Under the pieces are notes generated by a model. The model saw only the letters and a program-made list of their open reading frames with translations, did no database searches and was not told where the DNA came from. From Escherichia phage RB43, in sequence record NC_007023.1: 64,000 bases of DNA. One strand, given 5' to 3'. This document shows positions 4,445-29,870 of the stretch, piece by piece. A program made the position numbers and the translations under genes. The stretch's first letter is position 1. Every line of letters starts with the position of its first letter.

Positions 4445-4912
4445 TTATCCGTCATAACCGCCACCGCACTTAACCTCACCTTCAATGAACAGTTCGCGGT
4501 TGTCTCTCAAAAGATTGTATTTCTTTTCGAGTTCCGGCCCGAATGCGTCAGCGTCTTCATAATAGCTATAATTATAACAACCGCATTCATCATCCCATTC
4601 AGGTTCATCACCGCGTTCGTTGAAGTGTACGACTTTGAGATCGTCAACTCCAGACTCTTTCATTTTATCCCAGATATACCGGATGTCAACGCTATGGTAA
4701 CTGAATGCTTCAAGGGTGATGTTATCACCATCGATTTGAGGGATACCCCATTTAGGACGTTGGTCATCGGTGATGATATCAAGCAAAGATTCTACGTTTT
4801 CGTGTCCGTAAATCTTCGCGACCTCTTCCTCTTTACCAGGACGAACAAGCCCGATCCCGATAATAAAGCTACTGCTTGAACTGTTACTTACAAAACCAGA
4901 ACGGATCTTCAT
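4445..4912 (-). CDS. hypothetical protein with conserved N-terminal leader MKIRSGFVSNSSSSSF (paralog A)
   Basis: 155 aa; N-terminal 16 aa identical to gene 8362-8844 with synonymous nucleotide differences; acidic W/Y/C-rich C-terminus. Confidence 0.6.
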   Translation of the reverse strand: MKIRSGFVSNSSSSSFIIGIGLVRPGKEEEVAKIYGHENVESLLDIITDDQRPKWGIPQIDGDNITLEAFSYHSVDIRYIWDKMKESGVDDLKVVHFNERGDEPEWDDECGCYNYSYYEDADAFGPELEKKYNLLRDNRELFIEGEVKCGGGYDG

Positions 4913-5754: not shown

Positions 5755-7974
5755 TTACAGTTTAACTTCTTTTTCTTCCAGAACGATTTCGCAATCGAAT
5801 GTTGCACCTTCCCAGAATTTATGCGGGATAATGTCAGTCGCTTTAACCGATACTTTGGTTTCTTCAAAATCCAGATCCGCAAACCAGGCGTGGCCTACAA
5901 CGATACCATACATTACACGGCTCAGGCGCTTGTTCAGTGCGCGTACTTCGTTGATGGTTGCCTTTGTTTCTTTATCAAGGTACTCGATTACCTTATCCTT
6001 GTCAAGCGCTGCGAGTTCAGCTTTAACAGAATCGTAAGCCCACAGGATGATCAGGTCGCCGTTGTTCAGTTTCTTCTTACCTTCGGCACGTTTCGCAACG
6101 GTTGCCGCTACAGCAGGAAGGGAGGAAACACCCTTGATTTTCAGATTCAGTTCTTTCGACATATAAACATCAGTCGAATCGGTACTGGTTACTTTCGGGG
6201 AGAATCCATAATCACGAATACCCTGTTCAGATAACCATTCACCAGCGGCTTCACCGTATTTCTGTTTCAGACCTTCGGCATTACGTAAACCGATCGCGTC
6301 GTCACGGAAGAACTTCATCACCTTCTGGCGACCTTTCAGGATTTCCAGACGGATAGAGTCGTTTACATACTCTTTACCGGAGATCCCGCGAGTCATCGCA
6401 CGGTTAACCAGGGGCAGACTGGTAAAGTCAACCAGTACCGACATGCGGTCTTCACCGATTTTTGCCAGCGGCTTGATAGTCAAACCAGAAGCGCGAAGGT
6501 TTTTCAGTGTCGGAATATCAGTTTCCAGCGGCAGAACCTTAACGTTTACGATACCGTCTTTAACGATGGTAAAGTTACGTACCTGCTTAGTTTCGATCTG
6601 TTCAGGCAGTTTCAGTTCTTTCTGTTTGCTTTCTGGGATAGTTACGTAACCCATCAGATCCGTGTTAATGGAAATGTTAGGACGTGAACTGTTACCGACC
6701 AGGTGCTTAACCGATACTTTGGTTGTAGTCTGGGTAAATTTCGGTGTCCAGATTTCATGCGTTACCATTTGCGCCGCAAGTGCTTTGCGTTCTTCCGGTG
6801 TTTTCGCGTTTGCAATCTGTTCAGACAGTTGATCCAGAGTATCATCTTCTTTCTGTACCGTCTGACGGCCTGTGCGGTTGTACGCCCAGTGTTCAGAGGA
6901 CAGGTCGATCACAGTGTCGGTTTCTGCCAGCAGTTCGAGAGCGTCAACCAGAGTGAACGCGTTTTCGTCTGGAACCATGTTGTAATCAACACCATCGAGC
7001 AGACGTTTAGCCGGATCAACTACCGCTTCCGCGATCAGGTCTTTCGCGTTGGAATAGTCCTGTTTGGTAAAGCAGTTATCATACGCCTTAATCAGACGAA
7101 CATCACCCAGCTTTTTCAGCACTTTCCATGCAAGGTCAGGGTTCATTGTGTGTAGCGCATGATACAGCACGACATACAGAACCTGTTCACCTTCCAGAGT
7201 AGCCGGATCGAAACCGTCGATGTCGTTGATTGCGTTATCACCCAGCGCCCAGATGTTTTTGATGTGCTCAGGAACCAGAACAACACCGTTTGCAGCGTTC
7301 AGGACATACACACGCCCTTCGTCCAGGTAGATAGCATGGGTTGCGTCAGCAACTTTAACTTCGACGCGAGCGGAGGTTTGCGCGGTGATGATTTCAGCAA
7401 ATGCTGGCTCGTATGCGTCGAAACCTTCAACGAATTTATGCAATGCGTTGGTTGCTTCTGCCATTTTTTCCAGCAGAGGACGGTTAACATAATAGCCGTA
7501 TTCCAGGAATGCAATGCTGTTAAACGTCAGCGGGAGAACCGCACACGCTTTCAGGATGTCATCGGTACGCCAGCAGTTATCATAACCATCAGTCAGGAAG
7601 ATCAGGCTGTTCAGGTTGCCGTTTTCGGATTGCAGGTCGGTTGCGATTTCAGCAGCCAGATTCAGTGGTTCAACAAAACCAGTACAACCAGTAGGTTTCA
7701 GATAACGGTCGATCGCGGTACAGATATTGGTCAGATCCGATACGTTGCTAACCTTCTCACCACGGAACACAGTACCGTAATCGCCTTTGCTGGAGAAGTA
7801 CAGGATCGAAACGGTGTCATCCTGTTTAACCAGACTCGCCAGGTTTGCTTTCAGGTGCTTACGGATCTTCGGCAGTTCGTTATACATTGAACCGGAAACG
7901 TCGCAAACGAAAACGTGGTTGGTCGGAGTCGGCTTAGATACTGCGTTTTTGAATTCGATATTTGTAATTGACAT
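5755..7974 (-). CDS. von Willebrand factor A (vWA) domain protein, 739 aa
   Basis: N-terminal MIDAS motif VFVCDVSGSM (DxSxS) and downstream IFLTDGYDN; long C-terminal region of unknown function. Confidence 0.8.
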   Translation of the reverse strand: MSITNIEFKNAVSKPTPTNHVFVCDVSGSMYNELPKIRKHLKANLASLVKQDDTVSILYFSSKGDYGTVFRGEKVSNVSDLTNICTAIDRYLKPTGCTGFVEPLNLAAEIATDLQSENGNLNSLIFLTDGYDNCWRTDDILKACAVLPLTFNSIAFLEYGYYVNRPLLEKMAEATNALHKFVEGFDAYEPAFAEIITAQTSARVEVKVADATHAIYLDEGRVYVLNAANGVVLVPEHIKNIWALGDNAINDIDGFDPATLEGEQVLYVVLYHALHTMNPDLAWKVLKKLGDVRLIKAYDNCFTKQDYSNAKDLIAEAVVDPAKRLLDGVDYNMVPDENAFTLVDALELLAETDTVIDLSSEHWAYNRTGRQTVQKEDDTLDQLSEQIANAKTPEERKALAAQMVTHEIWTPKFTQTTTKVSVKHLVGNSSRPNISINTDLMGYVTIPESKQKELKLPEQIETKQVRNFTIVKDGIVNVKVLPLETDIPTLKNLRASGLTIKPLAKIGEDRMSVLVDFTSLPLVNRAMTRGISGKEYVNDSIRLEILKGRQKVMKFFRDDAIGLRNAEGLKQKYGEAAGEWLSEQGIRDYGFSPKVTSTDSTDVYMSKELNLKIKGVSSLPAVAATVAKRAEGKKKLNNGDLIILWAYDSVKAELAALDKDKVIEYLDKETKATINEVRALNKRLSRVMYGIVVGHAWFADLDFEETKVSVKATDIIPHKFWEGATFDCEIVLEEKEVKL

Positions 7975-8221: not shown

Positions 8222-8361
8222 AGAAAATAAATCGAACGGTAATGGGAGGTGCTGTTCAATCGTTACAGGTTCCCCCAGCTTGTGCGCTTTCAGGGGTTGC
8301 CCCTTTCGCGTATGTCAGTTCTGTTTTCATCAGTGGTGACTCTTTTGATGTATATTCAAGG

Positions 8362-8844
8362 TTACGGAAAGATGTTTCCATGTTCCAGTTGGGTTCCAAT
8401 CGGGCCGCACTCGTCAGAGTACGTAAACTCGTAGATAAACACGCCGTTTTGATTCCCGTACTTCGTGTTGTATTCTTCATACAGCCACATCTTGATCAGA
8501 GCGTCTTTCTCTTCGGTTTCTAAATCGTACCAATCCCGACCATCATATGCAAGCGCAATTTGCGGATTTGAACGATAACGGGTTTCGGCGCTGTCTTCGG
8601 TTTCCCAATCATAACGCTTATCATCATAATACGATTCAAAGCTATTACCCATGTGACCGCCTAAGTCACGGTGAACGTGTTGAACAACTTCTTCGGATGT
8701 CAGCGGAGGATTATAATAACCGCAATTGGGAGAACAATCACCCATCATTTCGCGAAGGTTGTCGATATCAATCGGATCTTTCGGGAACCGGACGATAAAA
8801 CTACTTGATGAACTATTGCTCACAAAACCAGAACGAATTTTCAT
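8362..8844 (-). CDS. hypothetical protein with conserved N-terminal leader MKIRSGFVSNSSSSSF (paralog B)
   Basis: 160 aa; shares 16-aa N-terminus with 4445-4912. Confidence 0.6.
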   Translation of the reverse strand: MKIRSGFVSNSSSSSFIVRFPKDPIDIDNLREMMGDCSPNCGYYNPPLTSEEVVQHVHRDLGGHMGNSFESYYDDKRYDWETEDSAETRYRSNPQIALAYDGRDWYDLETEEKDALIKMWLYEEYNTKYGNQNGVFIYEFTYSDECGPIGTQLEHGNIFP

Positions 8845-28432: not shown

Positions 28433-28715
28433 ATTTGAGAGTATTCATATAACCGATGATGTATTCAACAACAGCATCGCGTTCTTCTTCACATTCATAT
28501 CCACCCCACGTTACCGACTGATTATGTGCTAAATGAAACGTAATCGCAGGTTTCCATGTTTTGTTAATACAAGGAATTTTAGCGTCGGTCTGAATCCATA
28601 AAACGTGCTCTACGTTAACAGGATAGTTAACACATTCCACCTCTGCGTTACTATTGTATACAAAATGGTCTGCGTATAAACGTTTATACGATTTAATTTC
28701 TGACACAATAATCAT
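28422..28715 (-). CDS. hypothetical protein (97 aa)
   Basis: ORF; ATGA overlap with upstream gene's reconstructed stop. Confidence 0.45.
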   Translation of the reverse strand: MIIVSEIKSYKRLYADHFVYNSNAEVECVNYPVNVEHVLWIQTDAKIPCINKTWKPAITFHLAHNQSVTWGGYECEEERDAVVEYIIGYMNTLKYGG

Positions 28716-29870
28716 TTTAACTCCACTGCATAAACATCGGTTTCAGGGGCTTTGTGTACGCGCATATCTTTACCACATACCGCATAAGCCGGACAGTTGC
28801 GACAACCGTTATGATCCGTGTTGCCTGTCAGTTCTTTACGGAACTGTTTTGTTCGCGGGTGTTCCCAGATATCTTTGATAAAAATCATCTGCTTCCAGAA
28901 CGTTCAAACCTTCGCCCCAGCCACCTTCAACCCAACGTTCGGTAAACGAGCAAGGGAAGAATTCGCCTTTTTCGTTGATGTAAGAGCTAAACATCGTCGC
29001 TTCGCAATCTTCCGCATACTGCTTGTATTGTTCGAAGTTCGGGTGTCCCTCCATCGCTTCAACGAAAGCGGGTGCTGAACAACTATCGAATCCAAATCCT
29101 ACACCAGAATCGAGGCAATATTCAACAAGTTTTTTGTATTGTTCGCGGGTGACGGTATCCCAGTTCTTACCGCGTCCCTTTTGTTTCAGACCCAGGAACA
29201 CGATCGCATTGACTTGTTTCAGGCGTGGATCGTTACGCACGGCATCAACAACGGTAAACGCATCATCATAGGTCTTTGAGCTAACCATGAAATGTAGGTT
29301 GATTTGCTGTTGTCCTGCTTCTGCCAGGTTCGCTACGGAATCGAAAGCAACATCGAAGCCAGCATGTTTATACACCGATACCGCAACAGCCCCAGCAACC
29401 GCCGCTAAACGCGCTGCAACGTCTTTTGATACATCAGCAATGGTAAGGTTCGGCACAATGCCTTTAGAACGCGCATAGGCCATCATATCAAACATATCAG
29501 GGTTTGTTTGTCCCTGTGCATCAGCACCGAGTGCGCATTGGGTTAACCAGGGCATTTTATCAATGATGGATTTGAAAGAAGCGAGATCCATATTGTAGCC
29601 GTTCGGGTTATTGGACTTGTAACAGAACCCACACAGCTTACCAGCAGGACCGTTGCATTTGGTAGTGACCTCAATATCGAGAATCTCAGGGAATGGGGCA
29701 TAAGTCGGATCGTTGTCAAAGGTTGTACCCCAACGAGCAAACTGACCAGTTTTAACGTTGAAATCGTAATTGTACCATTTGGATCTAGCGTGGCGCATAT
29801 CTCCAGCCTGGTAGATAAACAACGTAGGCGCTTTCATAACAGTATGTGCATTATTCATAATATTTCTCAA
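28712..29870 (-). CDS. putative Fe-S / radical-SAM-like enzyme (non-canonical CX7CX2C), apparent frameshift at A5 run ~28885-28895
   Basis: TTKCNGPAGKLCGFCY cluster; C-terminal continuation in another frame adds CRNCPAYAVCGKD Cys motif. Confidence 0.35.

What the first reader, a model, noticed from the sequence alone, without database searches (positions are those of the whole stretch)
28712..29870. Fe-S enzyme with non-canonical CX7CX2C cluster motif
The motif TTKCNGPAGKLCGFCY resembles a radical-SAM cluster loop with a six-residue insertion, and a reconstructed C-terminus adds CRNCPAYAVCGKD. A canonical GGE SAM-binding motif is not obvious. This may be a divergent radical-SAM or other Fe-S enzyme, possibly acting on nucleotides or DNA. 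The gene also carries an apparent frameshift at an A5 run.
Basis: partly seen in the sequence, partly recalled or inferred. Interest (0 to 1): 0.5.

Follow-up and report, generated by a model that had tools for sequence, protein, structure and literature searches.

The report
Phage radical-SAM enzyme with tagged partners
This is a real but divergent radical-SAM iron-sulfur enzyme of phage RB43 whose "frameshift" is a sequencing error. Across hundreds of large phages its gene sits beside families of proteins that all start with the same 16 residues, which are probably the proteins it modifies.

Summary
On the minus strand, 28712..29858 encodes RB43ORF169c with a C-X7-C-X2-C loop, and the ORF is broken by one extra A in the run 28880-28884.

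RB43-GVA, GuL6 and about 170 related phages have A4 there and an intact 381-aa ORF. This record differs from RB43-GVA mainly by homopolymer indels, so the frameshift is a record error.

Nothing supports a nucleotide or DNA substrate. Instead, 65 of 86 homologous loci carry 1-8 same-strand genes that begin M-K-x-R-x-G-F-V-S-N-S-S-S-S-S-F, and 45 of 119 motif-seeded stretches contain the enzyme. RB43 has two such genes (4445..4912 and 8330..8844).

My best model is a phage protein maturase acting on this N-terminal tag; the chemistry is unknown. I found no literature on the pairing.

The parts
28712..29858 (-). Radical-SAM/twitch-SPASM enzyme gene (RB43ORF169c). It encodes 381 aa once the extra base is removed. 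In this record it is split into 28836..29858 and 28712..28888.
28880..28884 (.). A5 homopolymer run (T5 on the coding strand, after codon F326) holding the single extra base that breaks the frame.
   Evidence: RB43-GVA and GuL6 have A4 here. Neighbouring DNA shows many similar homopolymer indels against RB43-GVA.
29622..29657 (-). Radical-SAM cluster loop C68-NGPAGKL-C76-GF-C79 (CX7CX2C).
   Evidence: Translation verified. C68 and C76 are in 86/86 and C79 in 85/86 homologues. After excluding regex matches that start at an upstream Cys, the real spacers are n=7 (most), 12, 10 and the canonical 3.
29520..29534 (-). A109-L-G111-A-D113: the likely counterpart of the GGE SAM-binding motif, at the end of predicted strand beta2.
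   Evidence: G111 is invariant and D113 is >=90% conserved. Strand beta2 is residues 126-130 of the model, whose numbering is offset by +19. Translation ALGAD verified. The role in SAM binding is inferred, not shown.
29679..29858 (-). N-terminal extension of about 60 aa before barrel strand beta1. It is predicted all-beta, is conserved (N30, G38, W43, G44, D50, P51), and is a candidate substrate-docking module.
   Evidence: Conservation. Five predicted strands. The function is inferred.
28775..29081 (-). C-terminal twitch/SPASM-like auxiliary-cluster domain. C260, C285-X12-G-X4-C303 and C355 are invariant. C352 (64/86) and C361 (40/86) are additional cysteines in the RB43 subgroup.
   Evidence: Pfam SPASM E 1.2e-5, 25.9 bits against a cut-off of 21.5. 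NCBIfam SPASM and twitch models hit below their cut-offs. Cysteine counts. The profile hits the BtrN twitch region at E 0.011. Codons verified.
4445..4912 (-). Tag protein A (155 aa), starting MKIRSGFVSNSSSSSF (tag codons 4865..4912) and ending ...GGGYDG. Proposed substrate.
   Evidence: No Pfam or NCBIfam family. It occurs in the same isolate phages as the enzyme.
8330..8844 (-). Tag protein B (170 aa in RB43-GVA), starting MKIRSGFVSNSSSSSF (tag codons 8797..8844) and ending ...EHGNIFRNLEYTSKSHH. In this record it is cut to 160 aa by two extra bases, at 8370 and 8346. Proposed substrate.
   Evidence: PHROG 7397, function unknown. In the AF2 model, residues 1-10 are a low-confidence tail.

Best explanation
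The gene encodes a working (in the real phage, unbroken) radical-SAM enzyme. A [4Fe-4S] cluster held by C68, C76 and C79 on an enlarged loop would bind and reductively cleave SAM to a 5'-deoxyadenosyl radical. A C-terminal twitch-type domain with four invariant cysteines would hold one auxiliary Fe-S cluster that handles the electron.

Its most likely substrates are phage-encoded proteins that all begin with the invariant, flexible tag M-K-x-R-x-G-F-V-S-N-S-S-S-S-S-F. RB43 has two: 4445..4912 and 8330..8844. The enzyme would abstract a hydrogen from a residue in this tag. Candidate outcomes, in my order of preference:
- oxidation of a serine to formylglycine, as anSME and BtrN do;
- a Phe7-Ser9 three-residue cyclophane, as MscB makes;
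- epimerisation.

Shown: the fold, the conserved cysteines, the gene association in both directions, and the strictly N-terminal position of the tag. Inferred: SAM cleavage, the number of clusters, that the tag proteins are substrates, and the chemistry.
For: Enzyme identity:
- The leading Foldseek hits (ranks 1-37) are radical-SAM enzymes.
- The cluster-loop cysteines are conserved and the spacer varies, including the canonical CX3CX2C in P0103 and P0110.
- The Pfam SPASM hit is above its cut-off.
- Four C-terminal cysteines are invariant, matching the published twitch definition of 3-4 Cys and one cluster (PMC9477430).

Link to the tag proteins:
- 65 of 86 loci with the enzyme have 1-8 tag genes within 4-8 kb on the same strand.
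- In 15 of 100 loci the first tag gene starts -10 to +19 nt from the enzyme's stop codon.
- Seeding on the tag alone, 45 of 119 stretches (about 8 kb each) contain the enzyme. At least 11 more have it elsewhere on the same contig.
- No other gene family recurs with the enzyme.
- 11 of 19 loci in genome and MAG assemblies show the same pairing.
- The isolate Vibrio phage D479 (enzyme 55% identical) has 5 tag genes within about 10.5 kb upstream.
- Among 50,697 isolate records, the enzyme and both RB43 tag proteins occur in the same roughly 172 phages.

Nature of the tag:
- It is under protein-level selection. Each Ser position uses both AGY and TCN codons.
- It is always N-terminal, in 451 of 451 distinct occurrences.
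- It is predicted to be a disordered tail, with pLDDT 44 for residues 1-10.

Chemical precedent: anSME abstracts a C-beta hydrogen to make formylglycine, and SkfB and TqqB are twitch peptide maturases (PMC10114670). MscB links Phe C4 to Ser C-beta at positions i and i+2 (PMC11002830).
Against: - There is no biochemical evidence at all.
- In RB43 and its close relatives the tag genes lie 20-24 kb from the enzyme, not beside it.
- About a quarter of enzyme loci show no tag gene in the flank held, for example the Vibrio harveyi contig L006.
- Tag arrays also occur away from the enzyme, and I could not build a genome-level presence/absence table.
- Klebsiella phage KLB1 has lost most of the enzyme gene yet keeps tag protein A intact and is viable.
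- The enzyme has no recognisable RiPP recognition element. Pfam Radical_SAM scores only 11.9 bits against a cut-off of 29.5.
- Tag-bearing proteins could simply be a very abundant family in hyperplastic early regions of large phages. That would inflate adjacency, although it would not explain the tight operon-like spacing.
Confidence: 0.55

Rival explanations
1. The enzyme acts on a small molecule, nucleotide or DNA, for example a base or sugar modification. The neighbouring tag proteins would then be unrelated cargo of the same variable genome region.
Confidence: 0.15
2. The enzyme modifies some other protein, from the host or a different phage protein. The tag proteins would be co-regulated partners, for example adaptors, inhibitors or cluster/electron-delivery helpers, rather than substrates.
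For: The tag proteins are full-size folded proteins of 50-390 aa with very diverse bodies, unlike short RiPP precursors. One enzyme gene accompanies many paralogues. KLB1 keeps tag protein A without the enzyme.
Against: The only feature shared by all the neighbours is the 16-residue N-terminal tag, which is what a common recognition or modification site would look like. The tag is predicted to be exposed and flexible. Protein-substrate precedent exists in anSME.
Confidence: 0.15
3. In the sequenced RB43 stock the gene is a true pseudogene, or uses programmed frameshifting at the T5 run, so the enzyme is truncated or made at a low level.
For: The record as given carries the extra base, and the 340-aa truncated ORF is what was annotated (P0002). 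KLB1 shows the gene can be lost.
Against: RB43-GVA is otherwise almost identical and has A4 with an intact ORF. This record differs from it by 17 single-base indels against 3 substitutions in about 22.8 kb, and several of those indels break other conserved ORFs. That pattern is typical of read errors. All other relatives have A4. The truncated product would lack C352, C355 and C361, including the invariant C355.
Confidence: 0.07

Closest known systems
Radical-SAM twitch/SPASM peptide maturases (SuiB, SkfB, CteB, PqqE, TqqB)
   Different: Sequence identity is only 15-16%. No RiPP recognition element is detected; instead there is a conserved 60-aa all-beta N-terminal extension. The cluster loop is CX7CX2C. 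The putative substrates are many full-size phage proteins with the conserved motif at the extreme N-terminus, not short precursor peptides with a leader and a variable core. No protease or exporter gene recurs. The distribution is phage-restricted.
Anaerobic sulfatase-maturating enzyme (anSME/AtsB)
   Different: anSME has 7-8 auxiliary cysteines and two clusters, whereas only 4 are invariant here. Its substrate motif, C/S-x-P/A-x-R (from my own knowledge), is absent from the tag. No anSME family model is hit.
[quoted passage not shown]
   Same: They are radical-SAM/SPASM enzymes that link an aromatic residue to the C-beta of residue i+2, and MscB links Phe to Ser (PMC11002830). The tag contains F7-V8-S9, with F in 414/419 and S in 387/419 copies.
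   Different: No FxsB or Xye family model is hit. Known 3-CyFE substrates are short peptides, often with repeated or C-terminal motifs. The cysteine count does not fit a full SPASM domain.
Radical-SAM enzymes with enlarged cluster loops (QueE CX14CX2C, HmdB CX5CX2C, RadicalSAM.org Megacluster-2-5 CX7CX2C)
   Same: The first spacer of the cluster motif is lengthened while the CX2C and the fold are kept (PMC4389238; PMC9477430). This family itself spans n = 3, 7, 10 and 12.
T4 internal proteins with a shared N-terminal capsid-targeting sequence (analogy from my own knowledge, not tested)
   Same: Diverse, fast-evolving phage proteins share a short conserved N-terminal segment and are encoded in variable regions.
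   Different: The T4 targeting sequence is unrelated in sequence, is removed by the prohead protease, and involves no radical-SAM enzyme. Nothing here shows that the tag proteins are packaged.

Membership tests
Radical SAM superfamily | Three-cysteine motif (CX3CX2C or a spacing variant) just after strand beta1 that binds the SAM-binding [4Fe-4S] cluster | tested here: met
   C68-X7-C76-X2-C79 follows predicted strand beta1. It is conserved in 85-86 of 86 homologues, and two homologues have the canonical CX3CX2C. Spacing variants, including CX7CX2C, are accepted in the superfamily (PMC9477430).
Radical SAM superfamily | Partial (beta/alpha)6 TIM-barrel core | tested here: met
Radical SAM superfamily | GGE-type SAM-binding motif at the end of strand beta2 | tested here: inconclusive
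   There is no GGE. The sequence at that position is G111-A-D113, with G invariant and D >=90% conserved. No ligand-bound model is available.
Radical SAM superfamily | Match to Pfam PF04055 above the gathering score | tested here: not met
   11.9 bits against a cut-off of 29.5, E 0.26. The full-length protein gives no hit. At the sequence level the family is too divergent for the model.
Radical SAM superfamily | Reductive cleavage of SAM to 5'-deoxyadenosine | not testable with these tools
   Needs reconstituted enzyme.
SPASM domain (two auxiliary clusters) | Seven or eight conserved cysteines, CX9-15GX4C ... CX2CX5CX3C ... C | tested here: not met
   Only C260, C285, C303 and C355 are invariant. 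C352 is in 64/86 and C361 in 40/86 homologues. The fourth Cys of CX2CX5CX3C and the trailing Cys are absent. Pfam SPASM is nevertheless above its cut-off (25.9 against 21.5), while TIGR04085 is below (24.7 against 27).
Twitch domain (one auxiliary cluster) | Three or four conserved cysteines on a beta-hairpin plus helix, C-terminal to the barrel | tested here: met
   There are four invariant cysteines. C285-X12-G-X4-C303 flanks the predicted hairpin (model strands 310-313 and 318-320), followed by helices and then C(352)xxC355. The profile matches the BtrN twitch region at E 0.011. The NCBIfam twitch model gives a weak hit. Cluster binding itself is untested.
anSME / AtsB family | Substrate motif C/S-x-P/A-x-R and membership of the anSME sequence family | tested here: not met
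3-CyFE (FxsB/MscB, XyeB, GrrM) | Aromatic-x-x motif in the substrate, and membership of the FxsB, Xye or Grr sequence families | tested here: inconclusive
   The substrate-side feature is present (F7-V8-S9). The enzyme hits none of these NCBIfam models at E <= 10. No product chemistry is available.
Glycyl-radical activating enzymes | Small radical-SAM enzyme without a twitch/SPASM domain, acting on RVxG[FY] near the C-terminus of a glycyl-radical enzyme | tested here: not met

The most novel reading that the evidence does not exclude
This is a previously undescribed, phage-specific post-translational modification system. A single radical-SAM/twitch maturase would install a modification on the invariant N-terminal tag MKxRxGFVSNSSSSSF, which is carried by a very large and hypervariable superfamily of phage proteins. 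That superfamily has about 13,000 clusters at 50% identity, up to 8 paralogues per locus, and a fold with no match for the one member modelled. On this reading the tag is a shared chemical handle on diverse, fast-evolving phage effector proteins.
Probability: 0.45. Interest if true: 0.8.

Novelty: new variant of a known kind. Interest (0 to 1): 0.6.

Why it matters
Taken alone, the gene is a divergent member of a known superfamily that related phage records already annotate as "putative radical SAM protein". CX7CX2C loops are already catalogued, so on its own this is modest.

What is new is the partner. A strictly N-terminal, essentially invariant 16-residue tag sits on thousands of otherwise unrelated proteins of large phages, and it is genomically tied to this enzyme. 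I found it in no family database and in none of the literature I could search.

If the enzyme modifies that tag, it would be a radical-SAM protein-maturation system specific to viruses. It would give a first functional handle on a large block of phage proteins of unknown function in T4-like and jumbo phages. It would also offer a short, portable peptide tag with a dedicated modifying enzyme.

The idea is directly testable by co-expression and mass spectrometry, using RB43, KP15-like or Vibrio phage D479 genes.

Tried and rejected
- **PDB sequence searches.** The single-sequence search found nothing. The profile search gave only a weak BtrN hit.
- **Family searches on tag proteins.** Pfam and NCBIfam gave no family. 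PHROGs gave "unknown" plus a weak "head-tail adaptor" hit for tag protein A, which I treat as annotation noise.
- **Literature.** Searches for the motif strings, for phage radical SAM or RiPP, and for RB43 plus radical SAM found nothing relevant.
- **The shared 48 nt as a DNA-level repeat or recombination cassette.** Rejected, because every Ser position uses both AGY and TCN codons, Arg4 mixes AGA and CGN, and the two RB43 copies differ at synonymous sites.
- **Glycyl-radical site (R-x-G-F).** Rejected on register, N-terminal position and enzyme type.
- **Secretion signal or Tat motif.** Not supported by the sequence: there is no hydrophobic core and no twin arginine (my reading only).
- **Programmed frameshift.** Rejected in favour of record error.
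- **The vWA protein between the two RB43 tag genes as a third component.** It does not recur in other loci.
- **Natural deletion in phage KLB1.** Informative but ambiguous: the enzyme and the tag end of protein B are lost, while protein A is kept.
- **Not done or not possible.** The afdb50 fold library was unavailable. Negative-control scans of the whole T4 and KVP40 genomes were started but not completed, to save calls.

Full report
**Where the window comes from.** The region is 99.9% identical to phage RB43 (Pseudotevenvirus, Straboviridae). The truncated 340-aa product of the window ORF is exactly the database protein "RB43ORF169c", from a 180,500-bp contig (P0002). The window is therefore the original RB43 record. 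Around the finding, the minus strand carries a long run of small early or auxiliary genes, including a DNA methyltransferase, a nucleotidyltransferase, a NadR-like enzyme, PhoH and gp2. Baseplate genes follow on the plus strand.

**The observation.**
- On the minus strand, ORF 28836..29870 contains ...TTKCNGPAGKLCGFCY.... The real start is the ATG at 29858.
- A second ORF, 28712..28888, in another frame contains ...GCRNCPAYAVCGKD....
- The two RB43-GVA records and Buttiauxella phage GuL6 have one A fewer in the run 28880-28884 and an uninterrupted 1146-nt ORF of 381 aa. Its sequence equals the two window ORFs joined at F326/I327.
- About 170 isolate phages carry the full-length gene.

**Is the frameshift biological?** Probably not. 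Compared with RB43-GVA, 13.4 kb around the gene shows 9 single-base indels, mostly in homopolymers, and 3 substitutions. Another 9.4 kb shows 8 indels and no substitutions. Some of these indels break other conserved ORFs: tag protein B loses its last 10 residues through two extra bases. This excess of indels in an otherwise near-identical genome is the signature of read errors in the older record.

**What the protein is.** Sequence models barely recognise it.
- Pfam Radical_SAM scores 11.9 bits against a cut-off of 29.5.
- Pfam SPASM scores 25.9 bits against 21.5 on the corrected protein.
- NCBIfam gives only weak maturase, SPASM and twitch hits.
- PHROG 7293 is annotated "unknown function".
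- A PDB sequence search finds nothing.

The family is nevertheless large, with 2,532 clusters at E <= 1e-3. In 86 homologues of 45-92% identity, C68 and C76 are invariant and C79 is present in 85 of 86. The first spacer is 7 residues in most, 12 in about nine, 10 in one, and the canonical 3 (CDGGCxFC) in P0103 and P0110. A loop whose length drifts while the three cysteines stay fixed is what a radical-SAM cluster loop with an insertion should look like. There is precedent in QueE (CX14CX2C) and HmdB (CX5CX2C) (PMC4389238). The RadicalSAM.org survey already lists a CX7CX2C megacluster (PMC9477430).

An AlphaFold2 model of P0001 (92% identical to the RB43 protein) has pLDDT 94.2 and pTM 0.90.
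- The leading Foldseek hits (ranks 1-37) are radical-SAM enzymes; lower-ranked hits include other TIM-barrel enzymes.
- The model has the usual beta1, cluster loop and beta2-beta6 order.
- At the end of beta2, where GGE normally sits, the family has A-L-G111-A-D113, with G invariant and D >=90% conserved. This is a GAD variant rather than a missing motif.

The C-terminal domain has the hairpin-plus-helix layout of SPASM and twitch domains. Only four cysteines are invariant: C260, C285-X12-G-X4-C303 and C355. C352 is present in 64 of 86 homologues and C361 in 40 of 86. By the published criteria (7-8 Cys and two clusters for SPASM; 3-4 Cys and one cluster for twitch; PMC9477430) this is twitch-like. 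The only PDB profile hit is the twitch region of BtrN, at E 0.011. A conserved, all-beta extension of about 60 aa precedes the barrel, and no RiPP recognition element is evident.

**What it acts on.** I fetched 80 viral-contig loci with homologues, added a few assemblies, and clustered all flanking ORFs. Every recurrent neighbour family began with the same peptide, M-K-[I/V/T]-R-x-G-F-V-S-N-S-S-S-S-S-F, and then diverged completely.
- 65 of 86 loci hold 1-8 such ORFs on the enzyme's strand, usually in tandem just downstream.
- In 15 of 100 loci the first one starts -10 to +19 nt from the enzyme's stop codon.
- After setting these aside, no other family recurs among 129 enzyme loci.
- The reverse test seeded on a DNA pattern for the tag alone.
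- At least 11 more have the enzyme elsewhere on the same contig.
- In species-representative genomes the enzyme is rare: 19 loci, almost all MAG contigs. 11 of the 19 show the same pairing.
- The isolate Vibrio phage D479 (257 kb, enzyme 55% identical) has five tag genes within about 10.5 kb upstream on the same strand.

The loci without adjacent tag genes are mostly RB43's own close relatives. There the tag genes lie elsewhere. In this window they are 4445..4912 and 8330..8844, 20-24 kb away on the same strand. Among 50,697 isolate records, the enzyme (171 records) and the two RB43 tag proteins (172 and 173 records) occur in the same genera in the same numbers.

**Nature of the tag.**
- It is selected as protein, not DNA. 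In 419 unique copies every Ser position uses both AGY and TCN codon families heavily, and Arg4 mixes AGA with CGN. The two RB43 copies encode the identical peptide with several synonymous differences.
- It is strictly N-terminal. Of 451 distinct occurrences, 440 have the start codon exactly six codons before F7. The other 11 have Met plus one small residue before K.
- A profile of one subfamily finds 13,250 clusters (at 50% identity) at E <= 1e-3 among 1.84 billion representatives.
- None of Pfam, NCBIfam or PHROGs gives a function.
- Subfamilies differ at the other end. One ends ...SDExG...EHGxIFRN..H..S-H-H. Another, which includes tag protein A, ends ...GxGYDG. Another is Cys-rich.

**Mechanism proposed.** This is a radical-SAM/twitch maturase that recognises the exposed N-terminal tag of these phage proteins and abstracts a hydrogen from a tag residue. 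There are three precedented outcomes.
- Ser to formylglycine, as in anSME. This is alcohol oxidation, the same class of chemistry as the twitch enzyme BtrN (PMC10114670).
- A Phe7-Ser9 cyclophane, as made by MscB (PMC11002830).
- Epimerisation, as in EpeE/YydG, which is among the structural matches.

I favour serine oxidation slightly, because of the single auxiliary cluster and the serine run, but nothing here discriminates between the three. The fold and the association are shown. Everything about catalysis is inferred.

**Counter-evidence.**
- In RB43-like phages the genes are not adjacent.
- Some enzyme loci have no tag gene in the flank held, for example L006.
- Tag arrays also occur away from the enzyme, and I could not make a whole-genome presence/absence table.
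- Klebsiella phage KLB1 has only a 76-aa remnant of the enzyme. It has also lost the first 75 or so residues of tag protein B, but it keeps tag protein A intact. The enzyme is therefore dispensable in culture, and co-loss is only partial.

**Literature.** Searches for the motif strings, for phage radical SAM, SPASM or RiPP, and for RB43 plus radical SAM found nothing relevant. The library covers open-access papers and bioRxiv only, so prior description elsewhere cannot be excluded.

**Verdict.** The DNA/nucleotide guess is not supported, and the frameshift is a record artefact. The enzyme alone is a divergent member of a known kind. The enzyme-plus-tag pairing appears to be new and is readily testable.

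Noticed in passing
window 8296, 8346, 8370, 9211, 9880, 9958, 12192, 12206, 25084, 25806, 25816, 25837, 33055, 34998, 35007, 35395: Besides 28880, this record differs from RB43-GVA by 16 further single-base indels, mostly in homopolymers, against only 3 substitutions (29628, 30998, 33057) in about 22.8 kb. Several are likely to break or shorten annotated ORFs, so ORF calls from this record should be checked against RB43-GVA.
   Followed up: partly
window 8330..8844 (-): Tag protein B is cut to 160 aa in this record by two extra bases (8370 and 8346). RB43-GVA and relatives encode 170 aa ending ...FRNLEYTSKSHH. That conserved C-terminal motif (SDExG...EHGxIFRN..H..SHH) looks like a metal- or ligand-binding site of unknown function.
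   Followed up: partly
window 5755..7974 (-): A 739-aa protein with an N-terminal von Willebrand factor A domain (DxSxS at residues 25-29; PHROG 2426, function unknown) lies between the two RB43 tag genes. It is conserved in Slopekvirus (annotated vWA in phage KLB1) but does not recur with the enzyme or tag genes in distant phages.
   Followed up: partly
window 4445..4912 (-): Residues 64-147 of tag protein A hit PHROG 132, "head-tail adaptor" (E 3e-10), and a few GenBank records copy that name. Given the context among early-region small genes, this is probably annotation propagation. It could also hint that some tag proteins are virion-associated.
   Followed up: no
L230, L231, L232 (Klebsiella phage vB_KM5a1-KLB1, PP444686.1): This is a natural deletion variant. 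The radical-SAM gene is reduced to a 76-aa C-terminal remnant, which is still annotated "radical SAM protein". Tag protein B has lost its first 75 or so residues, while tag protein A is intact. It is a ready-made comparator strain.
   Followed up: yes
L227 21133..21861 (Vibrio phage D479, OZ195776.1): A homing endonuclease gene sits on the opposite strand, overlapping the 3' end of the radical-SAM gene (VPHD479_0103 against VPHD479_0104). Five tag genes lie within about 10.5 kb upstream.
   Followed up: partly
L208 (NZ_JBHSCL010000010.1, Flagellimonas marina assembly, 178,077-bp contig): A contig the size of a whole RB43-like phage genome sits in the genome assembly of a marine Bacteroidota isolate, with an enzyme 88% identical to P0001 (an RB43-like homologue, 92% identical to the RB43 enzyme). 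It is most likely contamination with an enterobacterial T4-like phage.
   Followed up: no
L218 (JAHPZA010000009.1, Promethearchaeota MAG, 793-kb contig): An enzyme homologue (41% identity) lies on a very long contig binned as an Asgard archaeon, with no tag gene within 6 kb. It could be a giant virus or mobile element, or a genuine cellular copy.
   Followed up: no
L063, L083, L021, L014 and others: One tag-protein subfamily is Cys-rich directly after the tag (for example FICDLCGETF...CEHGHIFC...CPFC), resembling zinc ribbons or treble clefs. The tag is therefore attached to bodies of very different types.
   Followed up: no
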